Shown piece by piece: positions 31,251 to 62,783 of a stretch of 64,000 nt of DNA. Below the pieces are notes generated by a model. That model searched no databases and was not told where the DNA came from. It was given only the letters and a program-made list of their open reading frames with translations. This DNA is from Podarcis vaucheri (taxonomy: Eukaryota), in the NCBI GenBank assembly GCA_965113315.1, contig OZ220376.1. One strand, 5' to 3'. Positions within the stretch are counted from its first letter, which is position 1; each line of letters opens with the position of its first letter. Made by a program: the position numbers and the translations under genes.

Positions 31251-31434
31251 GCACATAGCAAGCTGCTTTCTGTTGAGTCAGAACATTTGCTCCAGTCTAG
31301 CTCAGTATTTTCAACCTTGCAGCAGATCTCCAAGGTTTCTGGCAGGGATCTCTCCCATCTGTGGAGAAGCTACCAGGGATTGAACCTGAGATCTTCTGCA
31401 TGGGAAAAATTTGCTATATCACTGAGCTATAGCT
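31251..31434 (-). mobile_element. Squam3-like SINE
   Basis: ctagctcagtatt...ctccaaggtttc...gggattgaacctgagatcttctgcatg...cactgagctatagc. Confidence 0.7.
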
Positions 31435-31477
31435 TCTTTTTTTAACCTCTTAGAAGAGTGGTTGACTTGCACAAACT

Positions 31478-49938: not shown

Positions 49939-50027
49939 ATGGGAAGTTTCTATAGATTGGGGTGGCATGAACAGTAAGTAAATGCTTGTTTTTGAAGCTA
50001 TTCCCCACCACCACCCAAAACCAATTA

Positions 50028-50273
50028 CCATATTGGCCCTAATATAAGCCGCACCTTTAAAATTCAGGGGGGGGGAGGGAGCAAAGACAATACCCAATTA
50101 TAAGCCGCTCCCTTAAAATTCTGCAGGCACCCACACCCATTCCGTTTTACCGTAAGTCTGTTTCAGCAGCGATATTGGAAAAGCCAAATTTTGCAAGGTC
50201 GCGAATTTAAGTCGCGCTTTAACTTTTCACGGAATTTGGAAAAGAAGTGTGGCTTATATTTAGGCCAATATGA
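50028..50273. mobile_element. Tc1/mariner (Tc2/pogo-like) MITE
   Basis: 27-bp TIRs ccatattggccctaatataagccgcac / gtgtggcttatatttaggccaatatga; TA TSD on both sides. Confidence 0.85.
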
Positions 50274-52824: not shown

Positions 52825-52944
52825 GGCCACCTCTTCATTGTCCAGTACAATGACGGGAATGCTGAGGTCGTCTCCATGTGGGTCTGCCGGATGTTAGAGG
52901 AGAGGCGTTCGCAGCAGCAGCAGCAGCAGCAGGGATCTCAGTGA
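52825..52944 (+). CDS. MAP2K5: MAP2K5 terminal coding exon (GHLFIVQYNDGNAEVVSMWVCRMLEERRSQQQQQQQGSQ*)
   Basis: cttcttttcag|GGCCAC...CAGTGA. Matches the MEK5 C-terminus; stop TGA at 52942-52944. Confidence 0.96.
   Translation, partial: GHLFIVQYNDGNAEVVSMWVCRMLEERRSQQQQQQQGSQ
52912..52932 (+). repeat. MAP2K5: (CAG)7 coding repeat (poly-Gln) in the last MAP2K5 exon
   Basis: Seven uninterrupted in-frame CAG codons. Confidence 0.95.
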
Positions 52945-58234: not shown

Positions 58235-59149
58235 GGGGGGGTGTTCCTCAACAGCTGATCCACCACACATTCTGGCCAAGAGAGAAATGCATAGCCAACA
58301 GATGAGATGACTCTAAAGACAGGTGAGTGGAAGGCTGCCTCTGTTTTTTGCCTGCGTGTACGTGTTTGGTTGTGTGAACCAACGATCCAGCAAGCGATTC
58401 CCGCAGCTGGATGCTGTGCTGGAAAAGCTTTCACCCCCCCCCCGCCTCTTTTTCATCCACTTCTCCAAGGCTTTTTCTTTTCCCAAGGGCCTGATCACTC
58501 AAGCACCTCCGTCTCTCCCAGCGTGTGGAAAGTGGGAGGGAGCGGGGTTGCGGGGAGAGAAGGAGGGCCAACTAAAGCGTTAATTGTGCCTTTTTAGCTC
58601 ATGTTCGGCCGGCAGCAGGAGAAGGCGCTGCTTAAACCTAATCAATAAAGTCTTGTCTATTGATCGTGTAAATTTCATTTGGCAACCGTCACTTACCAGT
58701 CTCTCCCACTGAGCCGCGAGAGAGGCAAGGGCAGACTCGTCCCCCGCCCCGCAGTAAGCTGCTTTGGGGGACGGGCCCTGAGTCTTTGGCGCGGCTTTCA
58801 TGTGTGAATTTGAAGAAAGGGATGCTGTGCCCAAGTGGAAATGCAGAAACCCGCTCTTTCTAAGCCAGGGCCTTTGCAATATGTTCTCTGGCCCGCGATG
58901 ACCTTGGGTGGGTGGGGGATACGTCTAAGTGCTGTTGGATGAGTGGGCGTGCCTGGACTTGCACTTGCCCCATTCCTAAACGGCCTTGACTGGAACCAGG
59001 CGACACTACCTGCGGATTGGGACCATGTCTCTGGGCCCTCCGCCCTGAGCGCCATACTGGAGAAACACCAAGGGCTGTGCTGAGTAGGAGTGGATGCAAA
59101 TACCGCAATGAATGGATCTTGGCGCGGCAACTGGCCGTCGGATTCCCGC

Positions 59150-59170
59150 GTCTCTCTCCAGGGTCCTGAA
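59150..59170 (-). promoter_or_regulatory. RE1/NRSE-like site (degenerate)
   Basis: Minus strand TTCAGGACCCTGGAGAGAGAC vs consensus TTCAGCACCNNGGACAGCGCC. Confidence 0.5.
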
Positions 59171-59201
59171 GGCTCCCTAACCCGCCCGCGTCTGCCTCCG
59201 C

Positions 59202-59222
59202 GTCGCTCTCCGAGGTGCTGAA
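59202..59222 (-). promoter_or_regulatory. RE1/NRSE (REST binding site)
   Basis: Minus strand TTCAGCACCTCGGAGAGCGAC: perfect left half, GGAGAG right-half variant. Confidence 0.8.
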
Positions 59223-60814
59223 GGTCCCTTGACCTGAGGAGCCAACTACCAAGGCAGAGGGTGCAGGTTCCTTCAGTCTTTTACCTACTCCTGGCGGTGG
59301 GGAGAGGCTCTCTTTCTCCTCCCGCCTGCCCCGGGGGTCGCCTCTCTCTGTTGGCGGCGCCTCTGACCTCTGCCCGCCCCGTCCAGGTTGATTACTCCAT
59401 CAGGCCCGTCCGGGTGTGCCAAGGCTGTAAAGAGCCATTACCCGGATTCTTTTATCAATGTCCAGTAATTAAAATGTCACCGTTTAATTTTCAGGCCTTC
59501 TCGGAGCAATCTTTTCCTAATAAAGAGTCTAATCGAAAGGCTATTCGCCACCCTCCCACCCGAAAATGGCACCGGCAGGCGGGCTGCTGCGGCGGAGCGA
59601 GGCCCCCGCGCGGATCGATAGCGAGAGGGCTGGGATTGATCTGCCGCTAAAATGAAATTTATTGGGGTCATGGTTTTATATGGTGCTGATACAACTGTTA
59701 AATGGGGGACATTCGTTTCCAATAGGAGGCGTTTATTAAACTTCCACTGAATTAGACCGCGGTGATTTATGGGGCAATCTCCCGCCTGCGAGCCCCTCCA
59801 GGAACGAGAGCGGGGAAGGAAGGGCCTTGGCGGCCTCCTCTTAGAGAGATATTTATAAAGAGATGACACGGGCCTCTGAGTTTTAAGCCGGAGTGGCGAG
59901 GAAAGGACTTTCGAGGGACGTGACAAGGAGGCAAAGGATCGGGAGGCAGACGGAGGGTGGGTGGGGGAACCTAAAAGGGTGAGCCACCCAAGCCCACCAG
60001 CGCCACGTGTGACGGTCTCACCCCCGCCAGAGTTCCCTACTCAGTTCAGGAATTTCCAACAGACTGGACAGAAAGTCTGGAGTAACATGGGTCTGCACGA
60101 CTGCAAGCCTACCCAGGTTTTCTGCTAGCCGCCCTGAGCACGGTTGGGTGGAAAGGCGGGGTGCAAAAATAAGGAGTAAAATAAAAGCAGGAAACAGGGA
60201 GTAAGTCCCATTGAGGGCGCTGGGACTCCGAATCGACACTGATCTGCTTGTGCGCCCATTACCCAGCCGAAATATTCCAAGACCAGCTCACGGGGCCAAC
60301 TTTCCTGCCGACTGTCTTTTGTCACGAGACTTTAGGTCATCGGAATCAAAAGCATCTTACAAGGGTGGGCCTTCCCTCGCCGCTTCACTGGTACCTTGTT
60401 TTGGCTGAAATACACGGATTAACAGCAGAGCGGAAGAGGAGGTGCTGGATTAACGCACGAACGGTCGAAGGGGTTGCTGTGAGGTCTCCCTTTTAAAACA
60501 AAACTTTGGAAACTCCCACTCCAAGCCTTCCCGAGAATTTTTCCCCCCAAGTAACACTTGCACCTTTGATTTGACTTGATCACAGCAGAGGTTGTGACAA
60601 GCCATTCCCCCTTTCCTCACTAGCGACTGGCATGATAACACTTTCCCCCGTTCCTCCAGCTGTCCCATTTTAAAGAAGAACCCCCATCGCCACCCATTCT
60701 CCTCCTGCGCAAACAGCTTTCTCATTCCCCCTTGGGGGCAGGAAGAGGAGAGGAGTATAAAGCGAGGAACAAGGGGTGGGGTTCTGTTTGGCAATCCAAG
60801 TGGGCCGGGCGGGG

Positions 60815-61116: not shown

Positions 61117-62679
61117 AGGCAGCCAAGCTGAGAAAATGAAGGGGGTGGGCCAAGGAGGATCCACCCTAGCTCTCCAGTACTTCGAGGTTCCCATCTCTGC
61201 CGCCACATGCCCCCTCTGTTTGACAGGGCTCAGGCTCTGCGGTGTGTTCTTGTAGTGTGGGTGAATAGGTGGCTATAGATATGGCGGAGATTGGATGGCG
61301 GATGCAGGGCTGGATACATGGTTAGAGAGGTTCTTGTTTTTCCCTCTGAGTTTGCTTGCTTGCTTGCTTGCTTGTTTGTTTAAGTTATATCCCACCCTTC
61401 CTCCCAACGGAGCTCAGGGCAGCAAACACACAATGCTCATCTTGTGGCAGTTAGTTCCTTGGGTCCATTGGACATGTCGTAAGATAGTGTTTTCCTTGAA
61501 CACAAGCTTGCTTGTAAACAGCCTAAGGGGCCAGGAGTGTGCCTGCAGATTCTTCTCCACTATAGACCCTCTTGGTCTTTCAAGGTGCTGCGCCCACAAC
61601 CTCTCCAGCAACCCCTGCTTGGAGGGCCAGCTCCCGCTCATATTTCAAAACAAGGGACAAAAGTAGAGACTCTCAGCCATCTCCTTCACCCACACTCCCT
61701 CAGAAAAACAACAACCCGTGTATATCCCCCCAAAACCCCTTGCATTGGGCGATCATTGAGTTTTAATTAAAAATTGTTACAATTAAACCCAACACACACG
61801 CACGTGCGCACACATGCCTTAATTACATTTGATTTTTAATTCCAAATCCGTGTTTACACAGTAAGCGAGACGTACCTCCTGATTATCCCCAATACTCTTT
61901 ATACTGTACTAATTATGTAAATTAAACCTAATTAACTGACAAAAAACTGCAGTTAATTCAACTGTTAAAAGATATGGGATCGCAAGGAGCTTAAGAGAAG
62001 CAATGAAAGGATAAGGGGAGCGGATACCTTCCTGGGGAGGGCTCTCCCCTTCCTGTTTGCACTGGGAGAAGGCAGGTGGGGGTTAGTTATGAACTAGGCA
62101 CTGGCTGTTAAAGTTAAAAAAGGTCGGTTGTCGTCGTTGGCTTTCCCCGATAAAGATCTGAGACCTCCAGAGCGACACGAGAGGTCAAAAGGAAGATTTT
62201 GAACGGCCGCCCCATGGCTCCTTAATCAATGTTCCCACTTCACTCGCTCCCACCCCACCGCTTGCTCCCCTCCCTCCCCTTAATCCCGAAACAGCACTGG
62301 AAACAATATTATTTCTGGCTGTGGTATAGTATCTGGGCGAGAAATGCAAGCATGCTTCTAAGTGCGCACCCTCCCTAACAATGAGCGGAGAATATTTTGT
62401 CGGAGCTGTTGGGCAGCAGAATGGATATCCTGCTGCGCCGAAACTTCAGTCCCTCCAAATTCCCATGTAAGGGGGAGGATTATGAGAGACCTCAAAAGGC
62501 AGCTGCTAGCCTTGCTTGTTGCTTTTATGCTCTCTTGGAAAGGTGGGGGGGGAGGGAGAAGTTAGAGAGGGGTGCTGCTCCCTGCTAATGTTCTTATAGG
62601 GTGGGGGCATGTGGTATAGAGTCCTTCGTCTCACAACTTCCCCGAACGGTGTTATTCGGACAGCGCCTTCTTTTACAAT

Positions 62680-62700
62680 GGCGCTGTCTCAGGTGCTGAA
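62680..62700 (-). promoter_or_regulatory. RE1/NRSE (REST binding site)
   Basis: Minus strand TTCAGCACCTGAGACAGCGCC (one core mismatch). Confidence 0.8.
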
Positions 62701-62762
62701 ACCACCGGTGCAGGTCGAATACCTGCAGCAACCGCAAGTGCGGGCCTCCGGCTAGGGGTCAG

Positions 62763-62783
62763 TTCAGCACCTGGGACAGCGCA
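62763..62783 (+). promoter_or_regulatory. RE1/NRSE (REST binding site), canonical
   Basis: TTCAGCACCTGGGACAGCGCA: both half-sites intact with a 2-bp spacer. Confidence 0.88.

What the first reader, a model, noticed from the sequence alone, without database searches (positions are those of the whole stretch)
59146..59235. Tandem RE1 pair apparently created by a ~52-bp duplication
Seen: two related ~36-bp units 52 bp apart, cgcgtctctctccagggtcctgaaggctccctaacc and cgcgtcgctctccgaggtgctgaaggtcccttgacc. Each contains a minus-strand RE1, one strong (TTCAGCACCTCGGAGAGCGAC) and one degenerate (TTCAGGACCCTGGAGAGAGAC). Similarity extends beyond the motif, suggesting birth by local duplication. With the 62.7-kb module this gives four RE1s and a half-site in 3.6 kb, an unusually dense cluster for so long a motif. 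Inference: REST sites bracket the homeodomain-rich blocks between them and may gate them.
Basis: partly seen in the sequence, partly recalled or inferred. Interest (0 to 1): 0.7.

Follow-up and report, generated by a model that had tools for sequence, protein, structure and literature searches.

The report
Duplicated REST silencer pair before SKOR1
A short local duplication left two head-to-tail copies of the docking motif for the neuronal-gene repressor REST upstream of the nerve-cell gene SKOR1; the stronger copy likely helps keep SKOR1 off outside neurons, and such pairs are a known and fairly common arrangement.

Summary
Two minus-strand RE1 motifs (59150-59170, 59202-59222) lie in adjoining units of 40 and 52 bp (40 plus a 12-bp internal repeat), so the duplicated unit was likely about 40 bp, not 52. 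Flank similarity beats the nulls (2 of 435 genomic RE1 pairs; 86 of 20,000 shuffles). The pair is present in 6 of 6 fully covering contig sets; in one relative the units match at 30 of 36, against 28 here. The locus lies between a MAP2K gene and a SKOR gene (MAP2K5/SKOR1 by gene order). REST binds the mouse and human SKOR1 5' region, apparently at other positions. The arrangement is not new: 46 head-to-tail matches (43 loci) occur in this genome against 1 inverted locus, 27 human pairs were published in 2006 with the same duplication model, and this scan noted tandem RE1s in other genomes. The wider cluster is dense (4 strict cores in 14.8 kb), but TAAT-rich blocks lie both inside and outside the claimed bracket, so 'gating' is unsupported. 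REST binding here is untested; the second copy varies at background rate and may be decaying.

The parts
59145..59184 (.). Unit A of the tandem duplication (40 bp)
   Evidence: Offsets 40 and 52 in the self-comparison; global alignment of A to B with one 12-base gap
59185..59236 (.). Unit B (52 bp = 40 bp plus a 12-bp internal repeat); abuts unit A
59186..59209 (.). 12-bp internal repeat in unit B; it repeats the tail of the RE1 right half
   Evidence: offset-12 segment
59150..59170 (-). Weaker RE1 copy (G at motif position 6; 3 mismatches to the recalled consensus)
   Evidence: 3 variable positions of 21 across 6 contig sets
59202..59222 (-). Stronger RE1 copy (canonical core, 2-bp spacer; 2 mismatches)
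   Evidence: 0 variable positions of 21 across 6 contig sets
59321..59850 (.). Strongly conserved, TAAT-rich non-coding block about 100 bp from the pair (likely enhancer); holds a lone RE1 left half at 59682-59689 (minus)
   Evidence: 2 variable positions of 530 against 27 of 329 in the flanks, Fisher P 5e-10; parts shared with more distant organisms H and I; left half
62658..62667 (+). RE1 right half-site, forming an inverted repeat with the right half of the 62680 site
62680..62700 (-). RE1, 1 mismatch; no flank similarity to the pair
62763..62783 (+). RE1, 1 mismatch; back to back with 62680, flank score 0 between the two
52825..52944 (+). Last coding exon of the upstream MAP kinase kinase gene (MAP2K5 by gene order)
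   Evidence: an upstream exon matches MEK-family kinases

Best explanation
A local head-to-tail duplication of about 40 bp, with a further 12-bp internal repeat, likely copied one RE1 site into two, and the stronger copy is predicted to bind REST and help silence the downstream neuronal gene SKOR1, or the enhancer-like block beside it, in non-neuronal cells. Shown: the two motifs, the unit structure, flank similarity above chance, presence in related organisms, and the gene order. Inferred: the duplication history (about 0.9), REST binding to the stronger copy (about 0.8), SKOR1 as target (about 0.65). The weaker copy is likely an auxiliary low-affinity site that is drifting (about 0.35 that it adds measurably). 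Each copy would bind one REST molecule in one orientation, which would recruit its deacetylase and demethylase co-repressors (established knowledge, recalled).
For: Unit anatomy and flank tests. In organism G two of the three differences in the pair make the units more alike, 30 of 36, and the six mismatches left are all transitions (read from the tables; chance (1/3)^6 = 0.0014 if mismatches were random). The tail of the weaker copy equals that of the stronger copy in organisms B, F and G. Genome-wide: 46 head-to-tail matches, 0 divergent, 1 convergent locus, controls 0-1. The RE1 core is about tenfold enriched in this genome. The region is single-copy and shares only the motif with 50 other RE1 loci. 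Locus: SKI/SNO and SMAD-binding domains 11 kb downstream, a 91% paralogue elsewhere, kinase exons upstream, matching the published MAP2K5/SKOR1 order. Mouse REST ChIP-PET clusters lie 4.2 kb 5' of Lbxcor1 (= Skor1) in ES and neural stem cells. Two human peaks on chr15, 4.2 kb apart, are each seen in 22 of 23 ENCODE experiments (their assignment to SKOR1 rests on recalled coordinates and on matching the mouse spacing).
Against: No binding or expression data for this organism. The 0 of 21 variable positions in the stronger copy is not significant against the 8.2% flank rate (P 0.17), nor against 3 of 21 in the weaker copy (P 0.23). Motif position 6 of the weaker copy is G in five runs of organisms A, B, D, E including the window, and T in F and G, never canonical. 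Human reporter data show that weak motifs add no repression, and no validated matrix score could be computed here. The listed mammalian sites lie about three quarters of the way or further from MAP2K5 to SKOR1 (mouse 12.5 of 16.7 kb), while this pair lies about one third of the way, so orthology is not shown. 2 of 435 null pairs reached the flank score (one is a repeat-family pair). The SKOR paralogue has no site with 3 or fewer mismatches in 60 kb.
Confidence: 0.7

Rival explanations
1. Only the stronger copy works; the weaker copy is a neutral, decaying by-product of slippage in GC-rich DNA, so the pair acts as a single RE1.
For: 3 of 21 positions vary in the weaker copy, at or above the 8% flank rate; position 6 differs between relatives; weak motifs gave no repression in a human reporter screen.
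Against: Its G-type core is enriched twelvefold genome-wide; no indel breaks the pair in 6 of 6 contig sets; tandem sites gave two shifted bands in published gel shifts. The difference between copies is not significant (P 0.23).
Confidence: 0.5
2. The two RE1s arose independently by point mutation, and the flank likeness is chance in GC-rich sequence.
For: The flanks are short (16 bases compared), chosen after seeing the data; Tandem Repeats Finder missed the pair; 16 of 20 other tandem loci examined show flank scores under 8.
Against: All four nulls give 0.07-0.5%; units abut exactly; relatives are more alike and differ by transitions only.
Confidence: 0.07
3. The pair was delivered ready-made by a dispersed repeat that carries two RE1s.
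For: Such a repeat exists in this genome: 7 of 20 tandem loci examined share 50-140 bp around a 32-33-bp-period pair, with at least 39 further loci matching. Repeat-borne RE1s are known in human.
Against: The window's pair has a 52-bp period, matches those loci only over 18-24 motif bases, and the 900 bp around it are single-copy.
Confidence: 0.04
4. The sites act on MAP2K5 or on a more distant gene, or flank the TAAT-rich blocks as paired gates.
For: The pair is nearer the MAP2K5 3' end (about 6 kb) than the SKOR1 main exon (11 kb); human RE1 knock-outs sometimes changed distal genes; the pair lies 100 bp from a strongly conserved block.
Against: The MAP2K5 promoter lies more than 75 kb away (exons already at -17.8 kb); the pair sits at the edge of the CpG-rich domain that spans SKOR1; TAAT-rich blocks also lie outside the bracket; SKOR1 is neuron-restricted.
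Confidence: 0.15

Closest known systems
Head-to-tail tandem RE1 pairs of the human genome (Johnson et al. 2006, PMC1557810; SNAP25, L1CAM, KCNN4)
   Same: Two RE1s within 100 bp, head to tail, one strong and one weaker as at KCNN4, proposed there to arise by tandem duplication.
   Different: Another gene and lineage; here flank homology and relatives show the duplication directly; binding is untested.
Tandem NRSEs of CELSR3 and PCDH-gamma (10.1101/2021.03.06.434230)
   Same: Several motifs in tandem, each bound by one REST molecule in one orientation.
   Different: Those use long-spacer or half sites 9 bp apart; these are two 2-bp-spacer sites 31 bp apart.
REST-bound sites at mouse Lbxcor1/Skor1 and at human chr15:67.82 Mb (PMC2573930, PMC11025195, PMC9903721 supplements)
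   Same: REST sites between MAP2K5 and SKOR1.
   Different: The human distal site is a single 7-bp-gap site and the proximal one lies by the promoter; no tandem canonical pair is listed, and positions do not match this pair (no alignment made).
Repeat-borne RE1 families (LINE2 and others, PMC1557810)
   Same: Explains part of the tandem pairs in this genome.
   Different: The window's pair shares no flanking homology with them.

Membership tests
Canonical RE1/NRSE (stronger copy) | Left and right half-sites with a 2-bp spacer in a 21-bp motif | tested here: met
   Exact match to the strict core pattern; 2 mismatches to the recalled consensus
Canonical RE1/NRSE (weaker copy) | Left and right half-sites with a 2-bp spacer in a 21-bp motif | tested here: inconclusive
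   Spacing is right; position 6 is G here and T in organisms F and G; the G core is enriched 702 to 57
Canonical RE1/NRSE | Score above a validated matrix cut-off (PSSM 0.91 or FIMO 20.86) | not testable with these tools
   Cut-offs read; no matrix was available
Canonical RE1/NRSE | REST binds the site in vitro or in vivo and represses | not testable with these tools
   No ChIP or reporter data for this organism; mammalian binding is at the same locus but not shown to be the same site
Canonical RE1/NRSE | Motif more conserved than its flanks | tested here: inconclusive
   Stronger copy 0 of 21 against 27 of 329, P 0.17; weaker copy 3 of 21
Tandem RE1 pair (Johnson 2006) | Two RE1s within 100 bp | tested here: met
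   52 bp apart
Tandem RE1 pair (Johnson 2006) | Head-to-tail orientation | tested here: met
   Both on the minus strand
Tandem RE1 pair (Johnson 2006) | Origin by local duplication, seen as homology outside the motif | tested here: met
Repeat-borne RE1 | Flanks homologous to dispersed copies elsewhere | tested here: not met
   Single-copy region; motif-only hits to 50 RE1 loci

The most novel reading that the evidence does not exclude
REST control of SKOR1 is ancient but its sites have turned over completely: this lineage lacks both mammalian sites and built its own cluster of five full RE1s, partly by local duplication, with one copy caught in decay. The MAP2K5/SKOR1 interval, a restless-legs risk locus in people, would then be a clean natural test of function kept while every binding site is replaced.
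Probability: 0.35. Interest if true: 0.45.

Novelty: new member of a known kind. Interest (0 to 1): 0.25.

Why it matters
Modestly. It adds a well-resolved example of how a long binding site multiplies: flank homology, exact unit junctions and relatives all show the duplication that was only proposed for human tandem RE1s. It also points to SKOR1 as a REST target across amniote-level distances, a link I found in supplementary tables but not in the main text of any listed paper (searches; most subscription papers are not searched). It changes no model of REST action.

Tried and rejected
Tandem Repeats Finder did not report the pair. Rfam gave only a weak tRNA-like hit far away. A homeodomain search listed no match at this locus among 150 scored of 428 candidates. 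A PB1 search, meant to confirm MAP2K5, found 4 matches, none on this contig; exon-wise searching can miss it, so it is uninformative. No long-spacer RE1 was found in the 164 kb scanned with a strict left half. The SKOR paralogue shares no RE1 and no conserved upstream block with this locus. Runs X15 and X16 cover only the conserved block, not the pair, and say nothing on its presence there. Supplements: none readable for PMC1557810, so its list of human tandem RE1s was not seen; no SKOR1 or MAP2K5 name in those of PMC4371837, PMC4055426, PMC11025195. The human reporter library leaves out 5 kb upstream of start sites, two of its files were cut, and the site had no scrambled control, so absence there and its activity values were not used. 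A motif-string paper search gave nothing relevant. The one paper read for SKOR1 with REST names SKOR1 only as a marker. Earlier findings by place gave nothing.

Full report
Observation. The two quoted 36-bp units are at 59147-59182 and 59199-59234 and match at 28 of 36 positions. Each holds a minus-strand RE1-like 21-mer: 59150-59170 with 3 mismatches and 59202-59222 with 2 mismatches to a consensus that I recalled. Only four sites in the 64 kb have 3 or fewer mismatches: these two and 62680-62700 (minus) and 62763-62783 (plus). A right half-site lies at 62658-62667 and a lone left half at 59682. Tandem Repeats Finder does not report the pair at score 30.

Anatomy. Self-comparison shows repeats at offsets 52, 40 and 12. 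Unit A (59145-59184, 40 bp) aligns end to end with the adjoining unit B (59185-59236, 52 bp) with one 12-base gap. The simplest history is a 40-bp tandem duplication plus a 12-bp internal repeat of the right-half tail; the order of the two events is not known.

Is the likeness more than the motif? With the 21-mer removed, 12 of 16 flank bases match and the anchored alignment score is 10. It was reached by 2 of 435 pairs among 30 genomic RE1 sites (the first 30 of 676), 14 of 19,809 local pairs, 14 of 19,487 GC-matched pairs and 86 of 20,000 flank shuffles. One of the two genomic exceedances is a pair of repeat-family copies. The flank lengths were chosen after seeing the data. The 62.7-kb pair scores 0 by the same test, so it did not arise this way. 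With the motif included, 0 of 2,000 shuffles and 7 of 310 window tiles reach the observed score.

Relatives. 24 runs were listed and 8 were laid. Six, from organisms A, B, D, E, F and G, span the pair, all without an indel in it; two cover only the neighbouring block. In G the pair differs at three places, two of which make the units more alike (30 of 36), and the six mismatches left are all transitions (read). The tail of the weaker copy equals that of the stronger in B, F and G. Variable positions: stronger copy 0 of 21, weaker copy 3 of 21, flanks 27 of 329, block 59321-59850 2 of 530. Only the block is significantly constrained (P 5e-10); the two copies do not differ significantly (P 0.23). 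These are assembled contigs of close relatives, so power is low.

Locus. Kinase exons run through the window and end at 52944; one matches MEK-family kinases. A CpG-rich domain starts at 58 kb and runs to about 84 kb. At window position 70309 begins an exon with SKI/SNO and SMAD-binding domains, nearest to SKOR proteins, with a 91% paralogue on another contig. The names MAP2K5 and SKOR1 rest on the published gene order (PMC6093889, passages) and on my recall of the proteins; a PB1 search did not confirm MAP2K5. A fifth RE1 with 1 mismatch lies at 73887, after that exon.

How common? The strict canonical core occurs 676 times against 69 for the reversed control; the variant with G at position 6, as in the weaker copy, 702 against 57. 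Head-to-tail pairs of 30-60-bp period give 46 matches at 43 loci, ours among them, control 1; divergent pairs 0, convergent 1 locus. Of 20 tandem loci fetched, 4 have flank scores of 8 or more, and 7 belong to a dispersed repeat with a 32-33-bp-period pair, one copy of which matches at least 39 further loci. The window's pair matches these only over the motif and its region is single-copy. On contigs C1 and C10, where all 174 strict cores were listed, no 4-kb stretch holds 3 and no 15-kb stretch holds 4; this locus has 3 in 3.7 kb and 4 in 14.8 kb. Triples occur at 4 other loci under the looser pattern. The cluster is therefore in the upper tail but not alone.

Gating. TAAT/ATTA counts per 400 bp are 8 and 10 at 59.4 and 61.8 kb, inside the bracket, and 10, 10 and 11 at 63.8, 64.2 and 65.0 kb, outside it. 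The bracket is not specific.

Literature. PMC1557810 (passages and section 15; supplements unavailable) reports 27 human RE1 pairs within 100 bp, all head to tail, and proposes tandem duplication. Preprint 10.1101/2021.03.06.434230 (passages) shows one REST molecule per tandem motif. PMC9903721 (section 10, passages, supplement rows) finds that weak motifs add no repression and lists two REST-peak elements at hg19 chr15:68113358 and 68117538, the second with FIMO score 21.5 or 20.9 by matrix version. PMC11025195 (passages, supplement rows) lists the same two peaks in 22 of 23 ENCODE experiments, the first as a 7-bp-gap site; no row with coordinates beginning 6780 or 6781 was found. That these lie at SKOR1 is from recalled coordinates. 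PMC2573930 (supplement rows only) names the gene: REST clusters 4.2 kb 5' of Lbxcor1 and 12.5 kb 3' of Map2k5 in ES and neural stem cells, and an RE1 about 4 kb nearer the gene. By position these mammalian sites do not match the pair, and my scans found no site with 4 or fewer mismatches between 62.8 and 73.8 kb; no cross-species alignment was made.

Mechanism and verdict. Shown: motifs, unit structure, flank homology, presence in relatives, gene order. Inferred: duplication (0.9), REST binding to the stronger copy (0.8), SKOR1 as target (0.65), a real contribution of the weaker copy (0.35). It is a new member of a known kind; this scan has noted tandem RE1s in other genomes. Interest 0.25.

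Noticed in passing
L054:1380-1830 and L031, L037, L041, L048, L049, L053, L058, L059, L061: An old dispersed repeat (66-88% identity between copies, at least 39 further loci) carries a head-to-tail RE1 pair of 32-33-bp period, canonical core first and G-type core second; it may have seeded many tandem RE1s in this genome. Not classified.
   Followed up: partly
whole genome G000: The RE1 core with G at position 6 is as frequent as the canonical core (702 against 676), and is often the downstream copy of tandem pairs. How much is repeat-derived is unknown.
   Followed up: partly
window 62658-62783: Two near-consensus RE1s back to back, 62 bp apart, plus a right half-site that forms an inverted repeat with the first. 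Inverted pairs are rare here (0 divergent, 1 convergent at 30-60-bp range) and absent from the published human set. Conservation in relatives was not tested.
   Followed up: partly
L002:9887-9907 (window position 73887, past the window's end): A fifth RE1, plus strand, 1 mismatch, after the main SKOR1 exon.
   Followed up: partly
window 59321-59850: Block with 2 variable positions of 530 among relatives, shared in part with more distant organisms; likely an enhancer of SKOR1.
   Followed up: partly
L002:3095-3120 (window position about 67095): A minus-strand RE1 right half with 1 mismatch and a poor left half 7 bp away; the same strand and gap as the human distal site, so possibly its decayed counterpart. 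Seen by eye only.
   Followed up: no
G000:C31:62164597-62164693 and 62196483-62196579; C38:14400567-14400692; C38:19910622-19910672: Triple head-to-tail RE1 groups elsewhere in the genome; the C31 group occurs twice, 32 kb apart.
   Followed up: no
window 52911-52932: The last kinase exon ends in a run of seven glutamine codons (GCA repeat).
   Followed up: no
window 31365-31436: Weak tRNA-like Rfam hit (36 bits) in an intron, probably a tRNA-derived repeat.
   Followed up: no
window 50001-50200: A direct repeat scoring as high as the RE1 pair, not listed by Tandem Repeats Finder.
   Followed up: no
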